Made by a program: the position numbers and the translations under genes. This document shows, one piece after another, positions 45,217-63,103 of a DNA stretch of 64,000 bases. Origin of the DNA: a virus (lineage: Duplodnaviria; Caudoviricetes); IMG/VR virus record IMGVR_UViG_3300036766_002286; one strand, 5' to 3'. The notes under the pieces are model-generated. The model worked only from the letters and a program-made list of their open reading frames with translations. It was not told where the DNA came from and did not search any database. Positions within the stretch are counted from its first letter, which is position 1; every line of letters begins with the position of its first letter.

Positions 45217-46521
45217 CTATTCGTAGCGCAGGGCCTCTACCGGGTCCAGGTTAGCAGCTCTGCGCGCCGGCAACAGCCCCGCTAACATGCCTATCAGCGT
45301 GGTGACTATAATTACTATGAGGCTAATTCCTACGGGCACGCTTACCACATTGCGTGCACTCACTCCGCTGTCTATAAGTTGGTTATCGAGTATCTTGTTT
45401 ACTAGCAGAACTACGCCGAAAGATAGAGTTACCCCTATTACGCCGCCTATAAAACCTAAGATACTAGCTTCAATAGTAAATAAGCGTCTTATAGTCTTTT
45501 TGGTAGCTCCGATTGCGCGCATTATACCAATTTCTCGTGTGCGCTCTAGGATGGACATTACCAGTGTATTTATTACTCCTACGGCTGCAACTAATAGTGC
45601 TATGGCGCCAATTCCGCCCAGGACTGCTCCAATAATAGTGAATGCTGTTTGTTGAGCCTTTATCTCGTCTCGTCCGTTTGCTGCTCCTACTTTCAGGGCT
45701 TTTATATCAAGCATTACTTGGGTGATGTTTTTCTTGTTGTCAACACTTACATAAATGCTCGGATACCCGTTACGAGATAAGTTATTTTCTGTTACACATA
45801 TGGGTTACGTATTTGGACCGCCCCCGCTGCAGCGTTCAAAGCTTGGATCTAGAGTTTCGGCTAAGGCCGAAGTCATTTCTATTGATTTTTCACCATCTGT
45901 GTTAGCAATTCCAATAATAGTTAAAGTAATGGACGCTATAGTTATGCCCATATCTTTTCTTGGGTTCAAGGTAATTATTAAACCTATTGCTGAGTCGTAA
46001 GCTTTCTTGTATCCAAGTTCATCGGCTAGTCCTGTTGAAATAATTATCCCATTTGAATTATCAGAGTCTGCTAACGGCCGCCCGGCCGCCATTTCTCTGA
46101 TGCTTGTACCATTAGGCTTGTATCCTACAATCTGTATGTTTTTTAGGGAAAGCTCAGCATTACCAGCGACAAGCGATTCAAAGTTTTGTACACTTAAATA
46201 TGGGGTAACGCTATTAATGTGTGCAATTTTTTCTAACTCAGCCACTAAAGTTTCAGTTAATTTGGTTCCTGTTCCGTCACTCCAGTTACTGTAGCTAGCT
46301 TCCCGGTAGCTAACGCCCGTGTTTGGGGTAACTATTATGCGTCGGTCTTCTCCAGTTTTTTCAAAAGAGGTAGTTAGAAAGCTTTTTGCACTCGTAACTA
46401 ATGATAGCATTACTGTTACTGATACTGATCCTATAACTATTGCAAATATGGTCAGAATGGTACGCATTTTCTGGCGTCTCAGGTTGCGTCCTCCAGTCTT
46501 AATTTGATCGCTTATTTTCAT
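45217..46521 (-). pseudogene. MacB/FtsX-like ABC permease with one in-frame TAA (45805-45807)
   Basis: The two ORFs share a frame and the sequence between them is open (PNT*PICVTENN...). ERTREIGIMRAIGA and PARRAANLDPVEALRYE motifs. Confidence 0.88.
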
Positions 46522-47269
46522 AGTGCTGTCCCGTTTTCTGTAAGTTTTCCGTCTCTAATTGTGAGTACTCGCGTAGCTTTATTAGCTATTGTAAAGTCAT
46601 GGGTGATTATAATTAAGGTAATACCGTATTCAGCATTCAAGCGTATTAGCTCTCCCAGAACCTCTTTTCCTCGAGCCGAATCCAGGTTCCCAGTCGGTTC
46701 GTCAGCAATTATTATTGCAGGGTTTTTAATCAGCGCGCGTGCAATGGCTACTCGTTGGCGTTGTCCGCCTGATAGTTCTGTTGGTTTATGTTTTGCTCTG
46801 TCTGCTATACCTATTTTTGTTAAAGCCGCCATACCAAGTTCGCGCCACTGTTTTTTGTTTCCTTTTCCTCCTATTATTAAAGGCGCTATAACGTTTTCTA
46901 ATGCCGTTTCATGTGTTTGTAGGTTGAAAGACTGAAACACAAAGCCTATATAAGAATTGCGGTAGTTGGACAGTTTCTTGTCCCGCGCACTAGTCAAGTC
47001 CAAGCCATCTACTATTACTCCGCCAGCGTCTGGTTTATCCAAACCCCTATCACGTTTGCCAGTGTAGATTTCCCAGATCCAGACGGCCCTGTAATAGCTA
47101 TAAAGTCACCCCGATTTATGGTTAAAGATATACCATCTAAGGCAGCTATGGTTTCACCGCCTAGTTTATATTTTTTTACCAAATTTAGGCATTCTATGAA
47201 AGGTTTTTCGCTGCTCTCCGTTGTTTTATTAAGTATATAATCACGTATAGTATCATTTTTTTCTAACAT
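46518..47269 (-). pseudogene. LolD/MacB-like ABC ATPase, frameshifted near 47045
   Basis: GPSGSGKST lies in one frame; LSGGQRQR and ADEPTGNLD lie in another. Adding one G to the G4 run restores IGGLDKPD. Confidence 0.88.
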
Positions 47270-47357: not shown

Positions 47358-47908
47358 CTATACGATATTTTTCAATAGATGTCTACCAAGCGTCCCGTCC
47401 GGCATTATTGTGTCTTCTAAATTTGCTTCCATTATATTTGCAGAATAAGGTTTGCTTTTAAAAATATGGCATCCCAAAGCTGAGCGCCTTTCAAGTTTGC
47501 GCCTATTAGATTAGCCCCCACGAAATTGGCATCCGGGCAAAAAGCGTTTTCAAGGTTCACATAAGATAAATCGGCGCCTTCCAAATCAGCATTAAGGAGT
47601 CTCACCCCGATCATATTAGTTGCACTCAGATCTGCTCCGTGTAAATTAGTCCTTTCCAGCAAAGACATACATAGGTTAGCACCTTTTAACCTGCTGAAAG
47701 ATAAATTCGCGTTTCTAATAGCACAATAAGACAAGTTTGCGTAAGTAAAGTCAGTGTCTGAGAGGTTCGCGCCATACAAGTTACAGCGGGAAAAATCACT
47801 TCCAGCCAAGTCCACACCAGTAAGACAAACTCTGCCATTTTGTATAGTTTGGGCGAGCGTCATAACTTCCCCATCTCTAGTTACATATTCGATAGCTGAT
47901 TTAGTCAT
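47358..47908 (-). pseudogene. Pentapeptide repeat protein (array #21), frameshift near 47448
   Basis: N-cap EYVTRDG; the tail ANIMEANLEDTIMPDGTLGR lies in another frame, stop at 47358-47360. Confidence 0.85.
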
Positions 47909-47921
47909 TTTACTCTTGATT

Positions 47922-48539
47922 TCATGGTAAGTTATAATAGTTTAATAATCTTGTTTGCACCAAACCATCTGGCATTATTACAATTTCTAAGTTAGCTTCT
48001 TCAATGTTTGTATTTCGAAGGTTCGCTTTGAAAAATGTCACCAGCTTAAAACTAGCATACTTGAAGTTAGCTCCTCTAAAGTCTACTCCCCCAAATAAAG
48101 CTCCCTCACAGGTAACATTTTCCAGATTCACTCCTACCATCGTAGCTCCATCTAAATTGGTACTATCAAGATTTGCATTAGTCAAATTCGCACCCGTCAA
48201 GTCCGATCCGCGCATGTCAGCACAACTAAGGTTTGTGCCAGTTAAGTTCGCATCTAAGAAAGTAGCACCTCTTACGCTAGCATGTCTTAAACTAGCATAA
48301 CTAAGGTCTGCTCTATTTAATGTAGCCCCTGTTAAATTAGCATATCTTAAAAGAGCTTGATTAAGATTCGCCTCGGATAGCTTGCTATTTGCCAGATTAA
48401 CGTTGAATAGGTCAGCATTACTAAAATCAGCTCCGACTAGGTCCATATCAGCTAAACATATATTATCATCAAAGGTGTGGCGTTCTAGTACTATTATTTC
48501 CCCATCTCTGCTCAAGTATCGAACGTCTGGATTTTTCAT
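47922..48539 (-). CDS. Pentapeptide repeat protein (array #20)
   Basis: RYLSRDG ... MPDG. Confidence 0.95.
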   Translation of the reverse strand: MKNPDVRYLSRDGEIIVLERHTFDDNICLADMDLVGADFSNADLFNVNLANSKLSEANLNQALLRYANLTGATLNRADLSYASLRHASVRGATFLDANLTGTNLSCADMRGSDLTGANLTNANLDSTNLDGATMVGVNLENVTCEGALFGGVDFRGANFKYASFKLVTFFKANLRNTNIEEANLEIVIMPDGLVQTRLLNYYNLP

Positions 48540-48544
48540 TTTAT

Positions 48545-49084
48545 TTAACTGTGATTTGTCCCAGTCGGCATACTAGCACCTTCAAGTATTACGCCACGCA
48601 GGTCTGTCTGAAAAAGGTTCGCCTTAAATAATGTCGCCCAAGTCAGATTAGCATTTTGAAGAGTAGCTCCCTTAAGATCCGCCCCCACAAATTTTGTCAT
48701 CCAGCACCCAGCCCCAGTCAAATTAGCGCCTCTAAGATTCGCACCTTCAAAATTAGCGTTGTGAAGCACCGCATATTTCAAGCTAGTCGAAGTTAGGTCA
48801 GCATTTTTAAGGTCGGCTCCGTATAAATCAGCAAAATCAAGATTTGCATCAGTTAAGTTACTGTTGGTGAGCTTACTAAATTTCAAATTAACTTTACTAA
48901 AGTTAGCCCCGGTCAGATCCGACCCTTGCAAATAAGCCCCATCTAGGTTGATGTTTCTAAAATCCGCACCTTTCAGATCCATATAAGGCATACACACGTC
49001 ATCAGGGTATGGATATGATGAACCACAGAGTACTAGTTTTACTTTTAGACCGTCTCTGCTCAAATATTCATCTTTGTTTTTCAT
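48545..49084 (-). CDS. Pentapeptide repeat protein (array #19)
   Basis: EYLSRDG ... MPTG. Confidence 0.95.
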   Translation of the reverse strand: MKNKDEYLSRDGLKVKLVLCGSSYPYPDDVCMPYMDLKGADFRNINLDGAYLQGSDLTGANFSKVNLKFSKLTNSNLTDANLDFADLYGADLKNADLTSTSLKYAVLHNANFEGANLRGANLTGAGCWMTKFVGADLKGATLQNANLTWATLFKANLFQTDLRGVILEGASMPTGTNHS

Positions 49085-49130
49085 TCCACTCCCTCCTAAT
49101 ACTATTACCGCTTTTACATGTTTTAGTATA

Positions 49131-49664
49131 TTATATATGTACAGTTCCGTCTGGCATTATGCATCCCATCATTCGAGCGCCTGTAAAATCAGTTCCAATA
49201 ATATTGGCTCCACGCAAGTCAGCATATTCTAGGTTCACGTCGCGCAACGTTGCTTTAAATAAATTTGCTTTGTGAAACTCTGCTTTGTATAAATTTGCGC
49301 CACGCAGCGTTGCGTGTCTTAGGTCACAACCAGTCCAGTTGCTATGGTCACATGCAGCTTTCTCTAAGTTCGCGTAGCTCAAGTTTGCTCCCTCTAAGCA
49401 GGAACGTGCAAGCCGTGCTTCTTTCAAAGTTCCTTCAGTTAAATTGGCAGATGTTAAATTAGCACGCGCTAGCTTGGCCCCATTGAAATTAGTTTTCCTA
49501 GGGTCTCTGTCTACAAGACAAATATTATACACGTCTGTAAAACTTAAATTAGCCCCTGCTAGATCTACCCCCACTAAATGCGCACAGACTCCTCTTTCAT
49601 CTAGCTCTGAGCTTATTATTTTCCCAGTTGCGCTCGCAAACTCTGATCTAAGTTCTCTAGGCAT
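49131..49664 (-). CDS. Pentapeptide repeat protein (array #18)
   Basis: Start MPREL overlaps the upstream gene end; ends MPDGTVHI. Confidence 0.95.
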   Translation of the reverse strand: MPRELRSEFASATGKIISSELDERGVCAHLVGVDLAGANLSFTDVYNICLVDRDPRKTNFNGAKLARANLTSANLTEGTLKEARLARSCLEGANLSYANLEKAACDHSNWTGCDLRHATLRGANLYKAEFHKANLFKATLRDVNLEYADLRGANIIGTDFTGARMMGCIMPDGTVHI

Positions 49665-50196
49665 GTATAACACCATCTGGCATTATACATCCCGCCATAT
49701 AAGCACCCTTAAAGTCAGTTTCGATAATGTTGGCTCCAATCAAATTAGCCTTCTCTATGCTAGCGTACCTTAAGGTTGCTTTAAACAGATTTGCTTTAAC
49801 CAGGCTTGCCCCCTGAAGATGTGCATTTTTAAAGTTTGTATAACTCAAGTCAGCTCCTCTGAAATTACTATCATAGCACCAAGCGTACTCTAAATTTGCA
49901 CGAGCAAAATTTGCACCCTCTAAATTAGCATGTGCTATATTTGTACACCACAAATCAGCTCCCCGTAAGTCAGCATTACTTAAATTGGCATGGGGAAGAT
50001 AAGCATTTTTAAAGTTCGCATCGCAAAGGTTGCTGTGCGACAGGTCTGCTACCATCAAGTAACAATCAGTAAAATCACAACCACTCAGATCCATGTTCGC
50101 AAGTCCATGGCACACCCCAAATTCATTCACCTCTAAGCTAATCACTATACCTTCTCTGGTTGTGTACTGCGTTCTTAGTTTTTGAGATTTAGTCAT
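49657..50196 (-). CDS. Pentapeptide repeat protein (array #17)
   Basis: QYTTREG ... MPDGVIHA. Confidence 0.95.
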   Translation of the reverse strand: MTKSQKLRTQYTTREGIVISLEVNEFGVCHGLANMDLSGCDFTDCYLMVADLSHSNLCDANFKNAYLPHANLSNADLRGADLWCTNIAHANLEGANFARANLEYAWCYDSNFRGADLSYTNFKNAHLQGASLVKANLFKATLRYASIEKANLIGANIIETDFKGAYMAGCIMPDGVIHA

Positions 50197-50704
50197 GTAT
50201 GCTCCCGTCTGGCATTATGCATCCCCGCAAGTCAGCATCCATGAAATCAGCTCCAATAATATTTGCACCCGTCAAATCACTTCCCCGCATATCAGCATAT
50301 ACAAAACTACACTTAAATAAGTTTGCTTTACGAAAGTCTGTATTAGAAATAAGTGCCCAAGTAAAGCTCGCATATTTTAAGTCTGCTCCTCGAAAATTAG
50401 TATGTGAGCACCAAGCCTTATCTAAGGCTGCATAAGCTAAAGTCGCACCCTCTAAATTAGCCCCAAGAAGATGTGCGTGCGTCAAGTTGCATTTAGTCAA
50501 ATCTGCGCCAACCATAATAGTGTGGTTAAGAGACGCCTGGGATAGACCACTAGCTGTTAAGTCTGCTCCTGTTAGATTTATATAATCGAAATTTGTTCCC
50601 ACTAAATCCTTGTTCGCTAATCCTATGCAGATTCCGGCCTCATTACGATCTAGAGCAACCCTGGCCCCGGCACGAGTAGTATATTCCGCCCCCATGTTAG
50701 CCAT
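50189..50704 (-). CDS. Pentapeptide repeat protein (array #16)
   Basis: EYTTRAG ... MPDGSIHD. Confidence 0.95.
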   Translation of the reverse strand: MANMGAEYTTRAGARVALDRNEAGICIGLANKDLVGTNFDYINLTGADLTASGLSQASLNHTIMVGADLTKCNLTHAHLLGANLEGATLAYAALDKAWCSHTNFRGADLKYASFTWALISNTDFRKANLFKCSFVYADMRGSDLTGANIIGADFMDADLRGCIMPDGSIHD

Positions 50705-51155
50705 GTATGCTCCCGTCTGGCATTATACATCCATGCATTACTGTCTCATCAAAAATGCAGTTTATAATGTTTGCACCAGTTAAAACAGCCAAACTAAGAT
50801 CTGTTCTGCACATAGTTACTCCCAGCAGGTTTGCTTTCGTAAATATAGCCCCTCTACATGAAGCGTAGCTTAAATCACATCCAGCCATGTTAGCGCCAGA
50901 AAAATTCGCTCCCACCAAACTAGCCCTTTTTAAGCTCGTGTTACACATTTCTGCACCCTCAAAATTGGCATACGGCATCTTAATGTCCGCCAGCATCATA
51001 TTAGACAAGTTCACACCACGCACATTAATGTCACTCGATAAACCCACTTCAGCCCCAGACAACACCCGCACACCCTCTCTGCCTGCAACTGCGTAAGCTA
51101 AGACTTCCTCACGGGTAAACAAAATCGTATGGCGGCCAATTTTATATTTGCTCAA
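50697..51155 (-). CDS. Pentapeptide repeat protein (array #15)
   Basis: FTREEVL ... MPDGSIHG; TTG start with AAGGAG RBS. Confidence 0.93.
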   Translation of the reverse strand: MSKYKIGRHTILFTREEVLAYAVAGREGVRVLSGAEVGLSSDINVRGVNLSNMMLADIKMPYANFEGAEMCNTSLKRASLVGANFSGANMAGCDLSYASCRGAIFTKANLLGVTMCRTDLSLAVLTGANIINCIFDETVMHGCIMPDGSIHG

Positions 51156-51186
51156 TTTGCTCTCCTTTTAGACTCACTACTCATCT

Positions 51187-51203
51187 ATACTATTGCCGGC
51201 TAA
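51187..51203 (-). promoter_or_regulatory. Conserved internal promoter-like motif TTA(G/A)CC(G/C)GCAATAGTAT
   Basis: Also at 51995-52011 and 53073-53089 (partial at 49099-49111), each in an intergenic gap of the array. Confidence 0.65.
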
Positions 51204-51252
51204 CCTGCAAGACAAAGCATCTTACGCAACTGCAACACGCTCCACCACCAGC

Positions 51253-51963
51253 TTATTTATGTAAGCTCCCATCTGGCATGGTAGCACCACTAAGGTCAGC
51301 ATTTTTTAACTGTGATTTTCTTATCTCAGCCGAAGTCAAGTTTGCTCCTCTAAATACTACGTCTTCAAAAATTGCATTATGAAAATCAGCGTATTCTAGA
51401 TTAGCGTTGCTCATGTTTGTTCTAGTTAACCTACTATCCCGGAAACTGACACCAGACATGTAAGCACCTCGCACGTCTGCATCAGTTAAATTACAATTAT
51501 CTAAAGTGGAGCCCTCTAGATCCGTTATATACTTTTTTCCATCACCCGCCATATTGGCATTGGTCAAGTTAGCGCCCGTAAGGTTTGTATTTATAAGCGT
51601 AGCCCTGGTCAAATTGACGTTAATCAGGCTTGCATTTTCTAAATATGCTCCGTCTAAATCACAACCACTTAAAACACAATTGTCTAGTAATGCACCAGAC
51701 AAATTAGCATAATATAAACGTGCTTGTGTCAGATCACAGTTTGATAGATTAGCACCCCCCAACTTTGTCTCAACCAGATTGGCTTGCGACAGATTTGAGC
51801 CTAAAAAATTTACTCCTTGTAATTTCATTTCGCTCAAATCCATACCACTTAAACTCATACCAGCTGTGATCATATCCAGCACATCAGTACGGCTAGGCTG
51901 TTTTGCCTCGAAGCTCTTATTTTTGTCCAAAATTTCTTCCCGATTAAGTTTCCTATATATCAC
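51253..51963 (-). CDS. Pentapeptide repeat protein (array #14)
   Basis: LNREEIL / SRTDVL ... MPDGSLHK. Confidence 0.95.
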   Translation of the reverse strand: MIYRKLNREEILDKNKSFEAKQPSRTDVLDMITAGMSLSGMDLSEMKLQGVNFLGSNLSQANLVETKLGGANLSNCDLTQARLYYANLSGALLDNCVLSGCDLDGAYLENASLINVNLTRATLINTNLTGANLTNANMAGDGKKYITDLEGSTLDNCNLTDADVRGAYMSGVSFRDSRLTRTNMSNANLEYADFHNAIFEDVVFRGANLTSAEIRKSQLKNADLSGATMPDGSLHK

Positions 51964-52059
51964 TATGCTCTCCTTTTAATCCCTCTAGTTACATATACTA
52001 TTGCGGGCTAATCTACAAGAGAAACTGTTTTATATAGTAATAAATCATAGACCATCGTC

Positions 52060-52578
52060 TTACCTACAGATACTCCCATCTGGCATGGTGCATCCTCTCA
52101 AAAGAAAAGCCACAGTTAGGTCAGCACCTACAATATTAGCGCCGATCATGCTACTGTATTTCAAATCAGCTTTAGTTAGATTTGCACCATTTAGGTTTGC
52201 TTTATTGAAATTTGCTTTGTAAAAACTCGCTTTAGATAAATTGGCTCTCCTGAGGTCAGCTCCTTGAAAGTTGCAAGCTACACACCAAGCATCCTCTAAA
52301 TTTGCAGCACTTAAATCCGCTCCCTCAAAATTAGCATTCGCAAGGTCGGTGTACATTAAATTAGCACCAATTAAAGTAGCACCATGCAGGTCAGCCTGAT
52401 TCAAATTAGCATAGGTAAAATTAGCCCCCGTCAGGCCAGAGTGCGATAAATCTGCTCCAAATAAGGCTGTTTCACTAAAGTCGCAGCCCACTAAATCCAT
52501 GTTTGCTAACAATATATGACCTGATGTTTTATCTTTATATAAGTCAACTAAAACACCATCTCTGGTTTTATACTGCAT
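52060..52578 (-). CDS. Pentapeptide repeat protein (array #13)
   Basis: QYKTRDG ... MPDGSICR; start 52578 or 52602. Confidence 0.95.
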   Translation of the reverse strand: MQYKTRDGVLVDLYKDKTSGHILLANMDLVGCDFSETALFGADLSHSGLTGANFTYANLNQADLHGATLIGANLMYTDLANANFEGADLSAANLEDAWCVACNFQGADLRRANLSKASFYKANFNKANLNGANLTKADLKYSSMIGANIVGADLTVAFLLRGCTMPDGSICR

Positions 52579-52594
52579 CCCAGCCCCACCTCCT

Positions 52595-53035
52595 CTACGC
52601 ATATTTGCGCACCATTGTTTCTATCCACGCCCTCTGTTCCTGAATTCCCCCATTCGGCATTATACACCCAAGCGCCTCAACTCCATCAAAATTACAATCT
52701 ATTACATTGGCTCTAAAAAAGTTTGCCTTCACTATATTCGCACCTTCAAAACTACACCTGAATAAGTTAGCTTTTTCAAACTCAGTCCCACAGCATCGTG
52801 AATAACTACAATCAGCAGAGCGCAAGTCAACCCCACTCAAATCGCTTCCGTTTAGTCTAGCTCCCTTTAAGTTAGCAAAACTTAAATTAGCCCCCGTAAA
52901 ATCGCAATAAGACATTTTAACATTTTCTAAATTACAATAAGATAAGTCTATCCCACGCACGTTTATCCCCATAAGGTCGCCCGCATCATCGACTATAAAC
53001 GACAAAATTTCTTCTCTACTGTATTTTCGAAACAC
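52595..53035 (-). CDS. Pentapeptide repeat protein (array #12)
   Basis: YSREEIL ... MPNG. Confidence 0.93.
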   Translation of the reverse strand: MFRKYSREEILSFIVDDAGDLMGINVRGIDLSYCNLENVKMSYCDFTGANLSFANLKGARLNGSDLSGVDLRSADCSYSRCCGTEFEKANLFRCSFEGANIVKANFFRANVIDCNFDGVEALGCIMPNGGIQEQRAWIETMVRKYA

Positions 53036-53118
53036 TATTCACCTCCAGGTCTCCCACTCGTCTATATCGAATATACTATTGCGGGTTAATTAAAACTAGT
53101 AGCTTATATCCAGCTATT

Positions 53119-53910
53119 TTACTCGAATTTACTTCCATCAGGCATAATCGCGCCCGCCACCTCAGCGAATTCGAAGTCACAATCGGTCATTATCGCACCT
53201 GTAAAATCAGCGTCTCTTAAGTCCGTCCGTCGAAAATCTATCTTGTCCAGATTAGCATAAATAAAGTTTGCCTTCACAAGTCTTGCATTATTGAATCTTG
53301 CCGAAGTAATCGTGGATTTAGTAAAACTACAATACTCGCACCTACCCCCAGCAAAAGTTACCTCTAACATGCGCGCGCCATCAAGTTGCCCATAAGACAC
53401 GTCTGCTTGCATTAAATTACTTCTAATAAGTTCCGCACCCCGTAAATCAGCCTTATGTAAAACTGCTGCCACAAAACTACAATCTATAATAGTTATTTTG
53501 GATAAGTCAGCTTCCGACAGCACGCTACCTGTAAAGTCTGTCTTGTTAAGATTTGCTTTACTAAATTTTGTTTTAACAAGGTTTGCATTACTGAATCTTG
53601 TTTCAGCTAGAGTAGTTCCTGTAAAATTAGCACTATGACCCTTAGTCGAATCAAAACTTGCACCCCGCAGGTCCGCTCCTTCAAAATTAGCACTAGATAA
53701 AATTAATTCTTTCAAATTTACACAACTAAGATTAGCCGACCTAAAATTAACACCAGTAAAGTTAACTTTATTTTCACTTAAAGCAACCCCACGGAAGTCG
53801 CAATGAGACAAGTCAAGATTAGCAGCACTGAATCCCCACACACCACAAGATAAAAAAGCAAAACCCCCATGTCTGTCAATATATTTTATATCAGTTCTCG
53901 TAGCTTTCAT
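53119..53910 (-). CDS. Pentapeptide repeat protein (array #11)
   Basis: KYIDRHG ... MPDGSKFE. Confidence 0.95.
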   Translation of the reverse strand: MKATRTDIKYIDRHGGFAFLSCGVWGFSAANLDLSHCDFRGVALSENKVNFTGVNFRSANLSCVNLKELILSSANFEGADLRGASFDSTKGHSANFTGTTLAETRFSNANLVKTKFSKANLNKTDFTGSVLSEADLSKITIIDCSFVAAVLHKADLRGAELIRSNLMQADVSYGQLDGARMLEVTFAGGRCEYCSFTKSTITSARFNNARLVKANFIYANLDKIDFRRTDLRDADFTGAIMTDCDFEFAEVAGAIMPDGSKFE

Positions 53911-53911
53911 G

Positions 53912-54415
53912 TTAGTTCCCCTGATCAAAATAATAAAAAGGATAGACAGTGCCGTCGGGCATAATAGCACCTCTCATATGGCAATTAATAAAGGTGGTGC
54001 CAAGAATGTTTGCGCCTTTCAAATTGGCATACTCCAAGACCGCAGAACCAGCCAAAGTAGCACCATATAAATTCACTTTAAATAGGTTTGCCCGTCTAAA
54101 ACTTACGGTATCAAGCACAGCGAAAGCAAGGTTAGCTCCTTGAAGTACTATATCTTCGCAACGCACCCTCTCAAGGGTTGCGCCTGTCAAATCCGCACCC
54201 TCTAAATCAGCTCTGTACATGGCAGCCCCGACCAACTTAGCCCCGTGTAGATTGGCGCCCTGTAGTTTTAGATAGCTAAGGTTAGTAAAACTTAAATCAG
54301 CATAGCTGAGGTCACAATCACGCAGGTCTTTACCTAGCCAAGGTCCACCCCACGGCAGTTCACATGAAGTACCTTCTCGGTCAATATATTTTATGTTTCC
54401 TCTTATATATTTCAT
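53912..54415 (-). CDS. Pentapeptide repeat protein (array #10)
   Basis: KYIDREG ... MPDGTVY. Confidence 0.95.
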   Translation of the reverse strand: MKYIRGNIKYIDREGTSCELPWGGPWLGKDLRDCDLSYADLSFTNLSYLKLQGANLHGAKLVGAAMYRADLEGADLTGATLERVRCEDIVLQGANLAFAVLDTVSFRRANLFKVNLYGATLAGSAVLEYANLKGANILGTTFINCHMRGAIMPDGTVYPFYYFDQGN

Positions 54416-54473
54416 GTTCTCTCCCTTATATTATTCTCCATTTTCACAGTTGTGTAATGCAGTCATTATAATT

Positions 54474-54971
54474 CTATTTATGTACGCTACCATCCGGCAT
54501 AACCATATCTGCCATGTTTGCCCTTGTAAAATCAGCGCCCATAATATTTGCACCCAGCATTGATGCTTCCCGCAAGTCAGCTCCTATAAAACTAGCTTTG
54601 AATAAGTTTGCTTTGGTTAAATCTGCAGCATATAAAGTTGCACCCAAAAAGTTACAATAACTAAGGTCCGCTCCTTCAAATATTGTGCGTTTGCACCCAG
54701 CATGGCTGAAGTCAGCCCCATGACAGTTTGCCCCGACTAGAATCGCACCCTTGAGATTGGCACGAGCAAAACAGCCATCTATAAGACAAGATCCTGTCAA
54801 ATCAACTTTCAGCATGACGGCGCGAGAAAAGTTAGCCCCGCGCAACGCGCAACGACTTAGGTCAGAAAAAGGAAGATTACACTCAGTAAGATTAATATTT
54901 TCTAAGTTTTCATCCATTCTTACATATGCAGGCTTCATATTTTTATCATAATAGAAAACGTCTGATTTCAC
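54474..54971 (-). CDS. Pentapeptide repeat protein (array #9)
   Basis: FYYDKN ... MPDGSVHK. Confidence 0.95.
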   Translation of the reverse strand: MKSDVFYYDKNMKPAYVRMDENLENINLTECNLPFSDLSRCALRGANFSRAVMLKVDLTGSCLIDGCFARANLKGAILVGANCHGADFSHAGCKRTIFEGADLSYCNFLGATLYAADLTKANLFKASFIGADLREASMLGANIMGADFTRANMADMVMPDGSVHK

Positions 54972-55019
54972 TGGGTTTTCTCCAGTAATTTATCATCATT
55001 CAATGCAATCTCTAAAATA

Positions 55020-55439
55020 TTACACATGCTTACTCCCGTCCACCATGATAGCACCTCTAAGTTCAATAGCGCGCTCGAAATCACAGTTTACTACATTAGC
55101 GCCAGTTAAGTCGGCATTCTGAAAATACGCCCCGCCTACTTCTGTTTCAAGCATATTAGCACCCTTTAGATTAGCGCTGCTCAAGTTACTGCTAGTAAAG
55201 TTTGTTTTAAATAAATTTGCTTTTTCAAATATTCCACCATTAAGATATCCACCTGTAAAATCGGCACTAGTCAGGTCTGCTCCACTAAAGTTTGTAAACA
55301 TACAACTTGCAAAAATAAAGCCAGCACCGCACAACACCGCCCCCCGCATGCTACAATAGGAGAAATCAACTCCTGCAAAGCCAGTATTCGCTAAAACACC
55401 CGGGTTTCCTTCCCTCTCAATATAGTTGATATTTTTCAT
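55020..55439 (-). CDS. Pentapeptide repeat protein (array #8)
   Basis: NYIEREG ... MVDGSKHV. Confidence 0.93.
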   Translation of the reverse strand: MKNINYIEREGNPGVLANTGFAGVDFSYCSMRGAVLCGAGFIFASCMFTNFSGADLTSADFTGGYLNGGIFEKANLFKTNFTSSNLSSANLKGANMLETEVGGAYFQNADLTGANVVNCDFERAIELRGAIMVDGSKHV

Positions 55440-55999
55440 AAGGTTTTGTCGCCGCGCTGAAACACACTATAACGGCTAAAGAAATCAAAAGTATAAATAC
55501 TGCCATCCGGCATTGTTGCTCTTTCCAAGCTAGCGCCTGTAAAATCAGCGCACCCGATGTTCGCGCCCTCTAAATTAGCACGGCTTAGATCCGCGCAACG
55601 TAGATCTGTTTTATAAAGGTTTGCTTTAAAAAAGTTTACATTATATAAGTGTGCATTTTCAAATATAGCACCCTCAAGATTTGCTCCTTCAAAGCTAGCG
55701 CTTCCACACACAGCCCCACTGAGGTTTGCGCCCCGCAAGTTCACGCCGCACAAATCAGCACCGGTCAGGTCTGTTTCCCTTAAGTTAGCAGCGCTAAGAT
55801 TTGCACCCCGAAGTATACTTCTAAACATGTTTGCTTTACAAAAATTTACTTCACTTAAATCAGCCCTGGTCAGCTCAGCTCCTTGAAAATCAGCACCCCG
55901 CAGATCTTCGTCCGACCGGGCTCGTCCCCACACCAGTTCCCGCAAAACACCCTCACGGTCTATATATTTGACATTAGTTTGCATTGCTGTGCTCTCCAA
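55436..55999 (-). CDS. Pentapeptide repeat protein (array #7)
   Basis: KYIDREG ... MPDGSIY. Confidence 0.95.
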   Translation of the reverse strand: MESTAMQTNVKYIDREGVLRELVWGRARSDEDLRGADFQGAELTRADLSEVNFCKANMFRSILRGANLSAANLRETDLTGADLCGVNLRGANLSGAVCGSASFEGANLEGAIFENAHLYNVNFFKANLYKTDLRCADLSRANLEGANIGCADFTGASLERATMPDGSIYTFDFFSRYSVFQRGDKTL

Positions 56000-56001
56000 A
56001 C

Positions 56002-56511
56002 CTACTCATGTCTGCTCCCATCTGGCATTATAGCTCCCAAAAGGTTGCAACCAGTAAAGTTTGTGCCCGCTATATCTGCACCAAAAAAACTAGCTCCCGT
56101 ACAATTGGCATTTGTAAAATCGCTACCCTTAAGGTTAGCCTTCGTAAAGACACAATTTTCTAAATTTGCCTTAAACAAGTTAGCCCCTTGTAAATGAGCG
56201 CCCAATAAGCTTGCATCAAACATAGACACCCCACTAAGATCACAGTGAGCAAGATTTGCCTTATCAAGCAATATGAAAGGCATGTCGGCCCCATGAAAGT
56301 TAGCTCCGACCAAATTAGCTCCTTCAAGATTAGCATTCTCTAAATTAGCACAGGTGAAGTTAGCACCTCTAAGGTCTCTTCCATTAAGAGTCACACTAAA
56401 TAAGTAAGCCCAAGATAAATCAATTCCAACAAGGTTAGTACCCTTTTTTACCATAACAGTTTTCCCTGCCTTATCAAGATATATAAAATCATACTTTGCC
56501 CCATTATACAT
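56002..56511 (-). CDS. Pentapeptide repeat protein (array #6)
   Basis: IYLDKAG ... MPDGSRHE. Confidence 0.95.
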   Translation of the reverse strand: MYNGAKYDFIYLDKAGKTVMVKKGTNLVGIDLSWAYLFSVTLNGRDLRGANFTCANLENANLEGANLVGANFHGADMPFILLDKANLAHCDLSGVSMFDASLLGAHLQGANLFKANLENCVFTKANLKGSDFTNANCTGASFFGADIAGTNFTGCNLLGAIMPDGSRHE

Positions 56512-57178
56512 GTATACTCCCGTTTGGCATGATGGTTTCAGTTAGAATTGCATCATGTAGCCTCGAGATTTTCAAGCTCGCACCGAAAAGATTTGCATGA
56601 GAAAAATTTGTGCAAGTAAAAGTCCCTTTAGTCAAGTTAGCTTTCTCCAAGTCAGCATTCGAGAAATCAGCATTTGTTGAATCAGCGCCCTCTAAATCAG
56701 CTCCCCGCATGTCTGCAAAACTAAAATCTGCTTCAGCTAAGACTGCCTCGCACAAGAATGTTCGATGCTTATCATCCGCACCACACATAATAGCATTGCT
56801 AAAACAGGCCTGGTATAAATAAGCCTTACTAAAACTTGCTTTAGTTAAATTAGCATAAGTGAAACTACAACCGATGGCTTGTACTTTATATAAGACAGCT
56901 CCAGCTAAGTGAGCATTCGAGAAATTAGCAGACATTAGATTTGTCTCAGAAAGATTGGCTTTAGTTAGATCACAGTTTGACATATCAGCATTTTTACAAT
57001 TAGCACCCGCCAAGTCCGCTCCCGCCAAAGATAAACCTTTAAAATCTATGTCATGTAAATCAAGATCCCATAATACAGCATCTGCCAAGCTTTCTTTGTT
57101 TTCTATAGCATCAAGCACTTCAGATCTAGTAAATATCCGATCGTCAGGATGTCTAAAGTCGTAGCTACCTTCAGGCAT
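56504..57178 (-). CDS. Pentapeptide repeat protein (array #5)
   Basis: FTRSEVL ... MPNGSIHV. Confidence 0.95.
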   Translation of the reverse strand: MPEGSYDFRHPDDRIFTRSEVLDAIENKESLADAVLWDLDLHDIDFKGLSLAGADLAGANCKNADMSNCDLTKANLSETNLMSANFSNAHLAGAVLYKVQAIGCSFTYANLTKASFSKAYLYQACFSNAIMCGADDKHRTFLCEAVLAEADFSFADMRGADLEGADSTNADFSNADLEKANLTKGTFTCTNFSHANLFGASLKISRLHDAILTETIMPNGSIHV

Positions 57179-57671
57179 GTATACTCCCATCTGGCATAAC
57201 TGCACCCCTAAGGTTAGTATTAGTAAAGTTACAACCCTCTATATATGCACCAAAAAAATTAGCATACCTACAATCGGCAGATGAAAAATCAGCGCCCTTA
57301 AGGTTAGCCTCCGTAAAATCAGCCTCGTCCGCACGTACGCCTCTTAACGTAGCTCCTTGTAAATTAGCGCCCCGCAAATCTGCTCGCTGCATATCAGCAT
57401 CCGTTAGATCACAATTATGTAGATCTGCTCTATTAAATGAAGTGTCCATCAAGACAGCCGCAATCATACTTGATCCACTAAGGTCAGCGCCGCTCAGGTC
57501 AGCGGCTATAAAGTCAGCACGCGCCAAACGGGCGCCCATAATATCTCTTCCACTGAGATCACAACCAGATAACTCACAACCAGATAAATCAATTCCCACC
57601 AAACTAACACCCTTTTTTAAAACAGCAGCCTTATCATTACTATCAATATAGTCAATATCTTGATTTTTCAT
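57171..57671 (-). CDS. Pentapeptide repeat protein (array #4)
   Basis: DYIDSND ... MPDGSIHA. Confidence 0.95.
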   Translation of the reverse strand: MKNQDIDYIDSNDKAAVLKKGVSLVGIDLSGCELSGCDLSGRDIMGARLARADFIAADLSGADLSGSSMIAAVLMDTSFNRADLHNCDLTDADMQRADLRGANLQGATLRGVRADEADFTEANLKGADFSSADCRYANFFGAYIEGCNFTNTNLRGAVMPDGSIHA

Positions 57672-57841
57672 ATTAGGTAAACACTCCCATCTAGCATAAT
57701 AGCGTCTTTAAGGTTTCTTCCCTCGAAGTTTACTTCAGTAAAACTAGTATAAGATAAATCAATTCCCTCAAGACTTTCGTTTTTTCTCAAAACATGTGGG
57801 TTATCATCCTCATCAGTATATTCAATATCATGATCATTCAT
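57668..57841 (-). CDS. Minimal pentapeptide repeat protein (array #3, 57 aa)
   Basis: EYTDEDD N-cap, ~5 pentapeptides, MLDGSVY; coupled to both neighbours. Confidence 0.75.
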   Translation of the reverse strand: MNDHDIEYTDEDDNPHVLRKNESLEGIDLSYTSFTEVNFEGRNLKDAIMLDGSVYLI

Positions 57842-58607
57842 AGATACTCCCATCGGGCATAGTAGCCCCACTCAAGTTAGCACCCTTAAATACTATACCC
57901 GCAAATTGGTCCATACTTAAACTAACTCCCCTAAAAACCCCGCCAATTAAATTAGCATAGCTAGAATGACACTTGGTTAAATTTGCCCCTCTTAGCTTTG
58001 CACCCTCAAACCTGGTATTTGCAAGGTCTGTTTTAGATAGGTTCGCTTCGCATAAAGTAGCATACTTAAAATTTGCATTGCTTAAATTACAGTCTTCTAG
58101 GTCCGCTAGAGTTAGGTTCGCGCGGGTGAAATCAGCCCCTGCTAGGTGTCTTTCTCGTATATCTGCCCTTGTTAAATTGGCATCGCGAAAATTAGTGTAA
58201 GTAAATATCTTCTTCCAACTCGCGTCGTTTTTGTCCCCAATCATAATTGCACCAACTAAGATAGCTTTTTGGAAATTGGCATCTCTGATGTCTGTTTTAG
58301 TCATATTGGCTTCAAAAAAATTAGCATTTTTTGCAACGCATTCTCGCATATTAGCTCCAGCTAAACTACAATTAGACATGTTAGCCGAATCGAGACTAGC
58401 TCTTAGTAGCTGCGCACGAGTCAAGTCACACCTAACCAGATTAGCATTTTGTAGTTGAGTTGCCCCCAACATAGCCCCGGACAGGCTAATCCCAGAAAAA
58501 TCAATACCATTTAAATCAAGTCCCGTCAAATTACAATCCGCCAAAGTACCTCTGTTAGCTATAATTTCTAAAACCTGTTCACGAGATAAGCTCTTGCCGT
58601 TTTTCAT
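57834..58607 (-). CDS. Pentapeptide repeat protein (array #2)
   Basis: LSREQVL ... MPDGSIYE. Confidence 0.95.
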   Translation of the reverse strand: MKNGKSLSREQVLEIIANRGTLADCNLTGLDLNGIDFSGISLSGAMLGATQLQNANLVRCDLTRAQLLRASLDSANMSNCSLAGANMRECVAKNANFFEANMTKTDIRDANFQKAILVGAIMIGDKNDASWKKIFTYTNFRDANLTRADIRERHLAGADFTRANLTLADLEDCNLSNANFKYATLCEANLSKTDLANTRFEGAKLRGANLTKCHSSYANLIGGVFRGVSLSMDQFAGIVFKGANLSGATMPDGSIYE

Positions 58608-58743
58608 ATAAATATTCTCCCTTTAGTGTTTGTAAAGCCCAGTTTAACTAAATTTACCATATGAACACTTGCTGCTAGCACGTGATAAACAATCATTATT
58701 AGTATGTTTTTATGATTTAAGACCATACAATGCTCAAAGCGAA

Positions 58744-59243
58744 CTATTTATGAATACTCCCATCTGGCATAATAGCGCCAAAAAGTTTACAACCAGTAAA
58801 GTCGCATCCCTCTATATCTGCTCCTTTAAAATTAGCACCACACAAGTCAGCACCTGTGAAATCAACTTTTTTAAGATTGGCACCAGTTAAGTCAACATAA
58901 TCTAGAATTGCATAAACTAATTTCGCACTATACATACTAGCCCCAATCAAAGTAGTCCCGTACAGCTCAGCTTCAGTTAAATTTGCGTAATTAAGGTTTG
59001 CTTTATTTAAGGTTACTTGCGACAGGTTTGTTTTAATCATGGTAGCAAAAGTTAAATCAGCACCTTCAAGGTCTGTGTGTGCTAAGTCACTCGCATCAAA
59101 GTTACAACCTCTAAGATCTCTACCCACAAGCTTTGCATTGTGTATCAGACAATACGATAAATCAATTCCTACAAGATTAGCATCCCCCGCAAAATAGCAA
59201 ACTTTCCATCTATATCCATATACTTAACATCAAATTTTGTCAT
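58744..59243 (-). pseudogene. Pentapeptide repeat protein (array #1), frameshift in a G5 run near 59185
   Basis: AAGGAGG RBS plus MTKFDVKYMDIDG in one frame; DANLVGIDLSY...MPDGSIHK in another. Confidence 0.85.
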
Positions 59244-59470: not shown

Positions 59471-59824
59471 ATGAGTGATCGAAAAGCCCGCAACGCAGCT
59501 AGCGCTTCAGCCCTGGAAGTATACAAAGCAGCTGAGCTTCTAGCTTCTGTAGAATATCAGGCTGTATTGAAACCCGCTGAAGCCATTTATCAAGCTGTCA
59601 GTAGAGCCGCACATCGCGCCTATCAGGAGACCCATTATTCAATTGGCAACAGCGAATCCAGAGCAGCCCAGGAAGCCGCTTTTAACACTCTTTTATGCGA
59701 CGCCGCCAAGTCTAGAGATACTATTGTTGCTCCAGCAAAAGCTAGGTACCATGCAGTTGTTGCCGCCGCATTCGCTGTATATATTGAAACCACAGCCAAA
59801 ATCGCGAGTGGAGATTTATCATGA
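59471..59824 (+). CDS. Ala-rich helical protein, paralog 1 of 3
   Basis: GGAGG RBS; ends YIETTAKIASGDLS. Confidence 0.85.
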   Translation: MSDRKARNAASASALEVYKAAELLASVEYQAVLKPAEAIYQAVSRAAHRAYQETHYSIGNSESRAAQEAAFNTLLCDAAKSRDTIVAPAKARYHAVVAAAFAVYIETTAKIASGDLS

Positions 59825-60186
59825 ATGATCGTAAAGACCGTAGAGCAGCAATCGTTGCCGCCCAAGCTATATATCAAACCATCCAAAGTCAAGCATTTGA
59901 AGAGTATAGAGCCGTAGAACTCCCAGCCACCGCCGCATATGAAGTTTGTCGGAACACAGCTGTCCCAGGCGCAAACGATCTAGGGGCTGTGCATCCTAGA
60001 GACTTCATGCAACACGAAATCGCCCAAGCACTCGCAGCCGGACGTCAAATGTTCCTAGCTGATGCTCTAGCAGCTAGAGACGCCACAATCGCTCCCGCCA
60101 AAGCCAAATATCAAGCAACTGTGGCCACCGCATTTGCTGCGTATATCGAAGCTTGTGCAAAAATCGAAAGCGGAGACTTATCATGA
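59821..60186 (+). CDS. Ala-rich helical protein, paralog 2 of 3
   Basis: ATGA overlap; ends YIEACAKIESGDLS. Confidence 0.85.
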   Translation: MNDRKDRRAAIVAAQAIYQTIQSQAFEEYRAVELPATAAYEVCRNTAVPGANDLGAVHPRDFMQHEIAQALAAGRQMFLADALAARDATIAPAKAKYQATVATAFAAYIEACAKIESGDLS

Positions 60187-60524
60187 GCTCCCGCGGCACA
60201 ATTCGACCTGGCCTCGAGCCCGCCAAAAGCATATTGAAAGCCGCCCAAGATCAAACTTCTGCAAGATATAAGCCCATACTACAAGCAGCTCAAACTAAAT
60301 ATTTCGCGGGCTGTGCTGCAGCTAAGCAAGCCCTTATGGAAACCCTTGATGCTGATCACACTTATGCTCAAAAGTTAGCCTATGAAACTATTATACAAGG
60401 TCTAAAAGACACTAGAAACGCTACTATCCGCGCCGCCGAAGCCGAATATAATACAGCCATGACTAGTGCTCTTGCTATATATATTGAAACCGCAGCCAAA
60501 ATCACCACAGGAGATTTATCATGA
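60183..60524 (+). CDS. Ala-rich helical protein, paralog 3 of 3
   Basis: ATGA overlap; ends YIETAAKITTGDLS. Confidence 0.85.
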   Translation: MSSRGTIRPGLEPAKSILKAAQDQTSARYKPILQAAQTKYFAGCAAAKQALMETLDADHTYAQKLAYETIIQGLKDTRNATIRAAEAEYNTAMTSALAIYIETAAKITTGDLS

Positions 60525-62491: not shown

Positions 62492-62516
62492 TATAAAACT
62501 ACTAGGAGAACACACC

Positions 62517-63089: not shown

Positions 63090-63103
63090 CAGGAGAATAC
63101 ACC

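What the first reader, a model, noticed from the sequence alone, without database searches (positions are those of the whole stretch)
49131..57871. The conserved MPDGSIH C-cap doubles as RBS plus start codon of the next gene (self-chaining module)
Seen on the minus strand: GACGGGAGCATAC-ATG-GCTAA (50704), GACGGGAGCATAC-ATG-ACTAA (50196), GATGGTGTTATAC-ATG-CCTAG (49664), AACGGGAGTATAC-ATG-TATAA (56511), GATGGGAGTATAC-ATG-CCTGA (57178) and GATGGGAGTATCT-ATG-AATGA (57841). In five of the six, the Gly-Ser codons give GGGAG 5 nt before an ATG formed from the His/Tyr codon. All six have an 8-nt gene overlap. Inference: any duplication or recombination at this conserved block yields a new, translationally coupled unit. 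This would let the array expand and shuffle, and may imply stoichiometric co-assembly.
Basis: partly seen in the sequence, partly recalled or inferred. Interest (0 to 1): 0.75.

Follow-up and report, generated by a model that had tools for sequence, protein, structure and literature searches.

The report
Protein cap encodes next gene's start
In a 21-gene tandem array of rod-shaped pentapeptide-repeat proteins on an uncultured giant replicon, the last nine codons of six genes also carry the ribosome-binding site and start codon of the next gene: an unusually systematic, codon-level-tuned example of an otherwise well-known kind of overlapping, translationally coupled genes.

Summary
All six junctions have the stated sequence, an ATGNNTRA 8-nt overlap, and (in five) GGGAG 5 nt before the ATG.

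An independent gene caller on a second assembly picks the same six starts.

The amino-acid cap is old and structural. HetL (PDB 3DU1) ends in the same IMPDGSIHD, and 63 of 65 MPDGSIH caps in other genomes stop one residue after His.

What is special here is the codon choice:
- GGG-AGY is used in 11 of 14 Gly-Ser caps. It is used in 4 of 60 caps elsewhere and in 0 of 55 Gly-Ser pairs elsewhere in the window.
- Among about 70 conserved columns of the paralogues, only the cap Gly departs from background codon use (p = 3e-4).

So the cap most likely serves as Shine-Dalgarno plus start for -8 translational coupling, a known class.

- GGGAG also sits in three caps followed by 96-136 nt spacers. The coupled versus uncoupled contrast is only suggestive (p = 0.03 post hoc; not significant on the strict subset).
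- No recombination tract at the cap was found.
- Co-assembly is untested.

No relatives of the array could be fetched.

The scan noted this same stretch once more (e1-5511855), not on other DNA.

The parts
47358..59243 (-). Tandem array of 21 pentapeptide-repeat (PRP) genes, g1 to g21. g1 and g21 are frameshifted.
   Evidence: ORFs. Pfam PF00805 hits at E 1e-21 to 1e-49. Caps listed. Gene calls of a second assembly.
57834..57860 (-). Cap of g2 (MPDGSIYE*). GGGAG at 57851-57847, ATG of g3 at 57841-57839, stop at 57836-57834. Overlap -8.
   Evidence: The Logan gene call for g3 starts here.
57171..57197 (-). Cap of g4 (MPDGSIHA*). GGGAG at 57188-57184, ATG of g5 at 57178-57176. Overlap -8.
56504..56530 (-). 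Cap of g5 (MPNGSIHV*). GGGAG at 56521-56517, ATG of g6 at 56511-56509. Overlap -8.
50697..50723 (-). Cap of g15 (MPDGSIHG*). GGGAG at 50714-50710, ATG of g16 at 50704-50702. Overlap -8.
50189..50215 (-). Cap of g16 (MPDGSIHD*, the same C-terminus as HetL). GGGAG at 50206-50202, ATG of g17 at 50196-50194. Overlap -8.
49657..49683 (-). Cap of g17 (MPDGVIHA*). No SD (GGTGT). ATG of g18 at 49664-49662. Overlap -8. This junction has the most structured predicted RNA.
   Evidence: Fold: -28 kcal/mol, unpaired probability 0.20.
55974..56028 (-). Cap of g6 (MPDGSRHE*) with GGGAG-N5-ATG. The ATG (56009) opens an 11-codon ORF whose stop overlaps the ATG of g7 (55984).
54968..55046 (-). Cap of g8 (MVDGSKHV*) with GGGAG-N5-ATG. 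The ATG (55027) opens a 19-codon ORF that ends in GTGA on the GTG start of g9 (54971). Its peptide resembles a type-A PRP head.
   Evidence: The resemblance (ILEIALNDDKL against VLEIIANRGTL of g2) was judged by eye.
57668..57697 (-). Cap of g3 (MLDGSVYLI*). GGGAG lies 12 nt before an ATGA (-4) start of g4.
58744..58770 (-). Cap of g1 with GGGAG but no start nearby (136-nt spacer).
52060..52086 (-). Cap of g13 with GGGAG but no start nearby (96-nt spacer holding a leader motif).
51253..51279 (-). Cap of g14 with GGGAG but no start nearby (97-nt spacer holding a leader motif).
51186..51198 (-). Exact 13-mer CNGCAATAGTATA in the leader of g15. Identical copies lie at 51994-52006 (before g14) and 53072-53084 (before g12), and a 2-mismatch copy at 49098-49110 (before g19). 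Taken as promoter or leader of separate transcription units.
   Evidence: Promoter function is inferred.
59471..60524 (+). A second tandem paralogue family of three genes (113-121 aa). Its conserved tail ..GDLS* reads GGAGAYTTATCATGA, that is SD plus an ATGA start of the next copy.

Best explanation
The array is read as several polycistronic units. In six junctions the last 27 nt of a PRP gene do two jobs.

As protein, they encode the HetL-type C-terminal beta-hairpin cap (I-M-P-D-G-S-I-H-x-stop).

As RNA:
- the Gly-Ser codons, chosen as GGG-AGY, form a GGGAG Shine-Dalgarno element;
- 5 nt later, the His or Tyr codon (CAT or TAT) plus a G-initial last codon forms the AUG of the next PRP gene;
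- the upstream stop then lies 5 nt past that AUG (-8 spacing, ATGNNTRA).

The downstream gene is probably translated in one of two ways. Either a ribosome that has just terminated is held by the SD and reinitiates, or a fresh ribosome binds once the upstream ribosome has opened local structure. Either way, successive PRPs would be made in linked amounts.

Shown here: the anatomy, the start positions, and a codon bias specific to the cap Gly-Ser.
Inferred: SD function, coupling, co-transcription.

The cap's amino-acid sequence is ancient. What this replicon added is the synonymous recoding and the ATG.
For: 1. Anatomy. Six exact -8 overlaps, five with GGGAG-N5-ATG.

2. Starts.
- Gene calls on an independent Logan contig use the same six ATGs.
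- With these starts, the conserved Tyr of the type-B head falls at residue 8-11, against 6-10 in copies with their own intergenic RBS.
- The extra in-frame ATG that GAT-GGN creates 4 codons upstream is absent where Asp is GAC or AAC.

3. SD use in this replicon.
- GGAG, GAGG or AGGA lies at -16 to -4 in 22 of 35 called genes, against 4 of 35 in a control window.
- g10's own intergenic RBS is also GGGAG-N5-ATG.

4. Codon signature.
- GGG at the cap Gly in 14 of 22 caps, against 21% in PRP bodies (p = 1.8e-5) and 8 of 88 caps in other genomes (p = 2.8e-7).
- AGY in 14 of 14 cap Ser, against 60% (p = 8e-4).
- GGGAGY in 0 of 55 Gly-Ser pairs elsewhere in the window.
- Among about 70 conserved alignment columns, only the cap Gly departs from background (p = 3e-4). 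The neighbouring Pro, Asp and His codons do not.
- An Asp-Gly context does not favour GGG.

5. Association.
- GGGAG goes with an ATG at +5: 7 of 11 against 1 of 11, p = 0.024.
- Ile before His is ATA in 5 of 5 coupled caps and 0 of 3 uncoupled caps, p = 0.018.

6. ATG formation. Elsewhere it almost never opens a gene: at most 2 of 88.

7. Precedent. The -8 spacing is a recognised enriched class, and intragenic SDs raise reinitiation in 4 of 5 E. coli pairs tested (PMC12548453, PMC6728339, PMC10666635).
Against: - There is no expression data of any kind. The host and its 16S rRNA tail are unknown.
- GGGAG persists in g1, g13 and g14, where nothing could use it as an SD.
- g17 is coupled without an SD.
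- The coupled versus uncoupled contrast is small-sample and partly post hoc: p = 0.03, or 0.15 on the strict Gly-Ser subset.
- g15, g16 and g17 are neighbours in one clade, so the six junctions are not six independent events.
- The literature reports lower reinitiation efficiency at -8 than at -4 or -1 (PMC10666635).
- No orthologous array could be fetched to test conservation.
Confidence: 0.72

Rival explanations
1. Self-chaining module. The conserved cap block is also the crossover site for unequal recombination. Because the block carries SD and ATG, every cap-to-cap exchange yields a ready-coupled unit. GGGAG is therefore kept in all caps, even terminal ones, by second-order selection in a shuffling array.
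For: - GGGAG is kept in three operon-terminal caps.
- The cap-start state is scattered over an old tree: 6 changes, no clustering.
- Both head types (type A: g5; type B: g3, g6, g16-g18) sit behind cap starts.
- Head and tail similarities disagree for g12 and g9, which hints at mosaicism.
- A second tandem family in the window carries SD plus start in its conserved tail.
- Earlier scan notes call the family recombining. Those notes are unverified.
Against: - No pair of paralogues shows a high-identity tract at or near the cap. Identities are 20-55% throughout.
- The conserved DNA block is only about 20 nt, which is short for homologous recombination.
- The Pro and Asp codons inside the block are near background, so the block is not homogenised.
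- Recombination between caps preserves an existing junction. It does not create coupling.
- Four caps with extended tails and the solitary PRP lack GGGAG. That fits use-dependent selection better than a universal plug.
Confidence: 0.2
2. Passive inheritance. The junction and its codons are a frozen accident of the founder gene, or are kept alike by gene conversion. The ATGs may be used, but GGGAG has no role.
For: - All copies descend from one family.
- GGGAG is present in uncoupled copies.
- g15-g17 are adjacent relatives.
Against: - Terminal branches have a median of 1.2 substitutions per site. Synonymous sites in about 70 other conserved columns are at background, so ancestry cannot hold one codon pair.
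- Flanking cap codons are not homogenised.
- GGG is rare (9%) in the same cap elsewhere.
Confidence: 0.08
3. GGGAG in the cap serves the upstream gene, for example as an SD-like pause that helps the C-cap hairpin fold or times termination. Its position before an ATG is secondary.
For: GGGAG is present in caps with no downstream start (g1, g13, g14).
Against: - It is absent from the same cap in 56 of 60 Gly-Ser caps of other organisms, which fold the same hairpin.
- It is absent from the caps with extended tails here.
- It co-occurs with an ATG at exactly +5.
Confidence: 0.06

Closest known systems
Co-directional gene pairs with -8 nt spacing (NTGNNTGA class) and an intragenic Shine-Dalgarno, coupled by termination-reinitiation (Huber et al. 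2019 PMC6728339; Huber et al. 2023 PMC10666635; Brown and Wade 2025 PMC12548453)
   Same: - Same strand.
- ATGNNTRA overlap.
- SD inside the 3' end of the upstream ORF, 5 nt before the start.
- Tight operon packing.
   Different: - Here the arrangement recurs in six (functionally perhaps eight) junctions of one paralogue array, about 30% of junctions against about 2.5% genome-wide in H. volcanii.
- It is built on a conserved structural motif of the protein.
- It has a measurable synonymous-codon signature.
- Coupling itself is not demonstrated here.
HetL (All3740, PDB 3DU1) and other stand-alone cyanobacterial PRPs ending in MPDG(S/T)xHx
   Same: - Identical C-terminus (..IMPDGSIHD).
- A two-stranded C-terminal sheet caps the beta-helix.
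- The stop falls one residue after His in 63 of 65 sampled caps (PMC8145042).
   Different: - Elsewhere the cap Gly is GGT or GGC (59 of 65) and GGG is rare.
- The CATG, when present, does not start a gene.
- These genes are mostly solitary: only 10 of 88 are followed by another PRP.
Np275/Np276 of Nostoc punctiforme (PDB 2J8I, 2J8K): adjacent PRP genes
   Same: Two neighbouring small PRP genes whose products were considered as parts of one helix (PMC8145042).
   Different: - In Np275/Np276 an in-frame repeat-like spacer suggests a split gene, and Np275 lacks a C-cap.
- Here each gene is complete, with both caps, and the next gene is in another frame.
The GDLS-tail paralogue trio in the same window (59471-60524, + strand)
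   Same: Tandem paralogues whose conserved C-terminal codons (GGA-GAY-TTA-TCA-TGA) provide SD and the start of the next copy.
   Different: - -4 (ATGA) rather than -8 spacing.
- An unrelated, unannotated protein family (no Pfam hit).
- Here the tail may be conserved because of the RBS rather than for structure.

Membership tests
Pentapeptide-repeat proteins (Pfam PF00805, Rfr fold) | At least eight contiguous A(D/N)LXX-type repeats | tested here: met
   PF00805 at E 5e-21 to 2e-49 for five array members.
Pentapeptide-repeat proteins (Pfam PF00805, Rfr fold) | Right-handed quadrilateral beta-helix | tested here: met
   AlphaFold2 model of g16: mean pLDDT 96, a strand every five residues. Sequence matches to solved PRPs. 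This is a prediction, not a solved structure.
HetL-type C-cap subgroup of PRPs | C-terminal I-M-P-D-G-(S/T)-x-H-x-stop forming a two-stranded antiparallel sheet on the last coil | tested here: met
   - g16's C-terminus is identical to 3DU1.
- Model strands at 162-163 and 169-170 flank the MPDGS turn.
- The HetL description is in PMC8145042.
Translationally coupled -8 overlapping gene pairs | Same-strand pair with ATGNNTRA stop-start overlap | tested here: met
   Six junctions.
Translationally coupled -8 overlapping gene pairs | Shine-Dalgarno inside the upstream ORF at functional spacing | tested here: met
   - GGGAG 5 nt before the ATG in 5 of 6 junctions.
- The same motif and spacing occur in g10's intergenic RBS.
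- 22 of 35 genes have an SD.
Translationally coupled -8 overlapping gene pairs | Downstream translation depends on upstream translation | not testable with these tools
   This needs reporters or ribosome profiling. The only hint is lower predicted accessibility of the SD-to-ATG stretch at coupled junctions (mean 0.45 against 0.64, Mann-Whitney p = 0.035). That comparison is confounded by coding context.
Translationally coupled -8 overlapping gene pairs | Both genes on one transcript | not testable with these tools
   No spacer exists at the six junctions, so a separate promoter is unlikely. No transcript data are available.
Overlapping pairs that encode subunits of one heteromeric complex | The two products bind each other | not testable with these tools
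   There is only a literature prior: 30-45% of pairs spaced -8 to +10 nt encode complex subunits, against about 6% of distant pairs (PMC10666635).

The most novel reading that the evidence does not exclude
The cap block is a portable connector kept by selection on the array as a whole. Cap-to-cap exchanges add, drop and reorder PRP modules while keeping each new neighbour translationally coupled. The short ORFs that start at the cap ATGs of g6 and g8 and end on the next gene's start are working relays that restore coupling after such rearrangements. The coupled neighbours would then be made in fixed ratios because they stack or pair into mixed beta-helix assemblies.
Probability: 0.12. Interest if true: 0.65.

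Novelty: new member of a known kind. Interest (0 to 1): 0.36.

Why it matters
- It fixes the start codons of six genes in a hard-to-annotate repeat family.
- It suggests that runs of these PRPs are made in linked amounts.
- It is a clean natural case of dual coding. A deeply conserved structural motif, whose amino acids cannot move, has had its silent positions retuned into a ribosome-binding site. The effect can be measured against 88 copies of the same motif in other organisms.
- It gives simple silent-mutation experiments for testing -8 coupling. CAT to CAC removes the downstream start without changing the upstream protein.
- It does not reveal what the PRP array is for.

Tried and rejected
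- **Whole genome.** None is held for this window.
- **Logan contig.** The Logan contig of SRR11714510 gives gene calls but no DNA. The other roughly 100 PRP genes of the replicon could therefore not be read.
- **Relatives of the array.**
  - The search for related loci with all 19 paralogues failed for lack of a conserved stretch.
  - With four paralogues it returned only generic PRPs at 31-46% identity from metagenomes and IMG/VR.
  - The word-indexed protein search found no close relative, nor the query's own sequence.
  - A search with the head region alone found no candidates.
  - An exact look-up found none of six proteins.
  - The exhaustive search was swamped by giant PRPs: 115,099 hits, the best 150 all multi-kilodalton repeat proteins.
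  - A junction-specific DNA pattern in IMG/VR hit three non-PRP places.
  - The scan's own notes hold no look-alike stretch in another genome.
- **MPDGSIH pattern in IMG/VR.** It hit mostly unrelated proteins.
- **L222.** This is the one outside case of a PRP ORF opening at the cap ATG. It more likely starts at a second ATG that restores the usual MxxDELL head.
- **Complex prediction.** Complex prediction on g15 with g16 returned 'no answer', with the controls not run. It is not used as evidence either way.
- **Rfam.** No match in 46-61 kb.
- **Promoter and terminator scan.** The sigma-70 and terminator consensus scan was not above shuffles.
- **Recombination.** Segment-wise identities show no recent conversion tract.
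- **Literature.** A search for the MPDG motif in PRP papers found nothing.

Full report
**What is there**

The minus strand between 47358 and 59243 carries 21 tandem genes for small pentapeptide-repeat proteins (PRPs), called g1 to g21 here.
- Five tested members hit Pfam PF00805 at E 5e-21 to 2e-49.
- Twenty-two caps of the form M-[PVL]-[DNT]-G occur in the window. Twenty-one are in the array and one is in a solitary PRP at 39126.
- The paralogues are old: 28-47% identical to g16, with terminal branches of about 1.2 substitutions per site.
- Earlier notes of this scan place the window on a 616-kb uncultured sediment replicon with more than 100 PRP genes. I could not read that DNA, because no genome is held.

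**Checking the observation**

All six quoted strings are present at the quoted places.
- In each, the upstream gene ends ..G-(S/V)-I-(H/Y)-x-stop.
- The ATG is made from the last two bases of CAT or TAT plus the G of the last codon.
- The overlap is exactly 8 nt (ATGNNTRA).
- GGGAG from GGG-AGY lies exactly 5 nt before the ATG in five junctions. g17 has GGT-GTT.
- Six of 20 junctions at -8 compares with 62 of 2511 pairs in Haloferax volcanii (PMC10666635), p = 6.5e-6.

**Are these the real starts?**

Four lines of evidence agree.
- A gene caller run on an independent Logan assembly (SRR11714510, 58.9-kb contig) calls exactly these six ATGs. It calls 52578 for g13.
- With these starts, the conserved Tyr of the type-B head (Y-x-x-R-[DE]-G) falls at residue 8-11. 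In copies that have their own intergenic RBS it falls at 6-10.
- The only other in-frame ATG, made by GAT-GGN four codons upstream, is missing where Asp is GAC or Asn AAC. The His-codon ATG is therefore the shared feature.
- This replicon uses Shine-Dalgarno sequences. GGAG, GAGG or AGGA lies at -16 to -4 in 22 of 35 called genes, against 4 of 35 in a control window. g10's own RBS is also GGGAG-N5-ATG.

**The cap is ancient; the codons are not**

- g16 ends in the same IMPDGSIHD as HetL (PDB 3DU1). HetL's C-end is a two-stranded antiparallel sheet on the last coil (PMC8145042).
- An AlphaFold2 model of g16 (pLDDT 96) puts strands at 162-163 and 169-170 around the MPDGS turn.
- A codon-neutral DNA pattern for MPDGSIH found 65 PRP caps in other genomes, mostly cyanobacteria. 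Sixty-three stop one residue after His.
- The amino-acid sequence and the stop position therefore predate this array.
- In those 65 caps the Gly codon is GGT 33, GGC 26, GGG 3, GGA 3.
- Over all 88 outside caps, GGG is 8, GGGAG is 4 of 60 Gly-Ser caps, and a cap ATG opens a long ORF in at most 2.
  - One is a PRP followed by an ABC ATPase (L025).
  - The other (L222) more likely starts at a later ATG.
- Only 10 of the 88 are followed by another PRP gene, usually after 56-380 nt.

**The codon signature in the window**

- GGG is the cap Gly codon in 14 of 22 caps, against 21% in PRP bodies (p = 1.8e-5).
- The cap Ser is AGY in 14 of 14, against 60% (p = 8e-4).
- GGGAGY is 11 of 14 in Gly-Ser caps, and 0 of 55 in Gly-Ser pairs elsewhere in the window.
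- I threaded codons onto the protein alignment and tested every column where nine or more paralogues share a degenerate residue. Of about 70 such columns, only the cap Gly stands out (GGG 12 of 19, p = 3e-4). Other conserved Gly columns hold GGG in 0-3 copies. The cap's own Pro, Asp and His codons are near background.
- Asp-Gly context does not favour GGG.
- This argues against shared ancestry, block-wide gene conversion and dicodon bias. It points to selection on the pentamer itself.

**Does the signature track coupling?**

Only partly.
- GGGAG goes with an ATG at +5: 7 of 11 caps against 1 of 11, p = 0.024.
- I also split caps by whether any start lies within reach. The first group is g2-g6, g8, g15-g17 and g19. 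The second is caps with long spacers or extended tails, plus the solitary gene. The split gives 8 of 10 against 3 of 12, p = 0.03. It was made after seeing the data.
- On the strict subset (Gly-Ser, 8-residue tail) it is 7 of 7 against 3 of 5, p = 0.15.
- Ile before His is ATA in all five coupled I-H caps and in none of three uncoupled ones (p = 0.018). However, g15-g17 are neighbours in one clade.
- g1, g13 and g14 keep GGGAG in front of 96-136 nt spacers, and I cannot explain this. The four caps with extended tails and the solitary PRP lack it.

**Short ORFs at two further caps**

g6 and g8 also carry GGGAG-N5-ATG.
- In g6 the ATG (56009) opens an 11-codon ORF whose stop overlaps the ATG of g7.
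- In g8 the ATG (55027) opens a 19-codon ORF that ends in GTGA on the GTG start of g9.
- The g8 ORF's peptide looks like the head of a type-A PRP, as if a gene had been deleted.
- They may be relics, or they may relay ribosomes to the next gene. Neither was tested.

**Mechanism**

The best reading is ordinary -8 translational coupling with an SD inside the upstream ORF.
- The -8 spacing is the third most enriched spacing in prokaryotes (PMC12548453).
- Removing intragenic SDs cut reinitiation by 60-100% in 4 of 5 E. coli pairs (PMC6728339).
- -8 is reported as less efficient than -4 or -1 (PMC10666635).
- Predicted accessibility of the SD-to-ATG stretch is lower at the six junctions than at independent starts (0.45 against 0.64, p = 0.035), and lowest at the SD-less g17 junction. 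This fits dependence on upstream translation, but it is confounded by coding context.

**The evolutionary inference**

Logically, unequal exchange between two caps keeps whichever junction lies downstream, so an array with coupled caps can expand without losing coupling.

I found no direct trace of such exchange.
- There are no recent duplicates and no high-identity tracts.
- The conserved DNA block is only about 20 nt.

Hints in its favour:
- The cap-start state is scattered on the tree.
- Heads and tails disagree for g12 and g9.
- Type-A genes occur both behind cap starts (g5) and behind homologous leaders that carry an exact CNGCAATAGTATA 13-mer (g12, g14, g15).
- A second, unrelated tandem family next door (59471-60524) has SD plus ATGA start in its conserved GDLS tail.

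That last point suggests a general rule for this replicon: tandem paralogues inherit their coupling junction.

**Co-assembly**

Short overlaps are enriched among subunits of complexes (PMC10666635). That is a prior only; nothing here tests binding.

**Verdict**

- The dual use of the cap is well supported by sequence evidence, but no expression evidence exists.
- The self-chaining and stoichiometry ideas remain open.
- The mechanism belongs to a known class. The instance is new and unusually clean.
- The same stretch was noted a second time by the scan (e1-5511855), not on other DNA.

Noticed in passing
window 59471-60524 (+): Three tandem paralogues (113-121 aa, no Pfam hit) end in ..(S/T)GDLS*, encoded as GGAGAYTTATCATGA. 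The conserved tail supplies SD plus an ATGA start for the next copy. This is the same principle as the PRP cap, in an unrelated family.
   Followed up: partly
window 55974-56009 and 54968-55027 (-): The cap ATGs of g6 and g8 open 11- and 19-codon ORFs that terminate on the start codons of g7 and g9. The 19-codon peptide resembles a type-A PRP head, as if an intervening gene had been deleted.
   Followed up: partly
window about 59185 (g1, G5 run), about 47440 (g21) and 47015-47042 (ABC ATPase): Three frameshifts at the edges of the array. The same split ORFs appear in the gene calls of the independent Logan contig, so they are probably real pseudogenes rather than errors of one assembly.
   Followed up: partly
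window 51186-51198, 51994-52006 and 53072-53084 (-); variant at 49098-49110: An exact 13-mer, CNGCAATAGTATA, sits in homologous leaders before the type-A genes g15, g14 and g12. It is probably the element's promoter or leader and would split the array into several transcription units.
   Followed up: partly
window 45805-47269 (-); L025 100-1414: The array is followed directly by a MacB-type ABC transporter (frameshifted ATPase, permease). In an unrelated high-GC metagenome contig, a PRP ending MPDGKKHD* overlaps an ABC ATPase gene by the same 8 nt. PRP plus ABC exporter may be a recurring pairing.
   Followed up: no
window 52595-52602 (-): A seventh -8 ATG (TAT-GCG-TAG) lies at the end of g12's extended tail, in frame with g13. 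The Logan caller prefers the later ATG at 52578, which has a strong GGAGGT SD.
   Followed up: partly
window 61925-63568 (+): Three PRPs of a subfamily without the MPDG cap are separated by 14-25 nt spacers and do not overlap.
   Followed up: no
array genes g2, g5, g12, g14, g15 against the rest: There are two head types: type A (..REE(V/I)L.. helix-like) and type B (Y-x-x-R-[DE]-G hairpin). Both combine with both tail signatures (G-C-I-M-P-D-G and G-A-I-M-P-D-G). g12 and g9 have heads and tails with different nearest paralogues, which hints at old mosaicism.
   Followed up: partly
window 39094-39126 (-): The solitary PRP cap MPDGSVSTSS uses GGA-AGT, not GGG-AGT.
   Followed up: no
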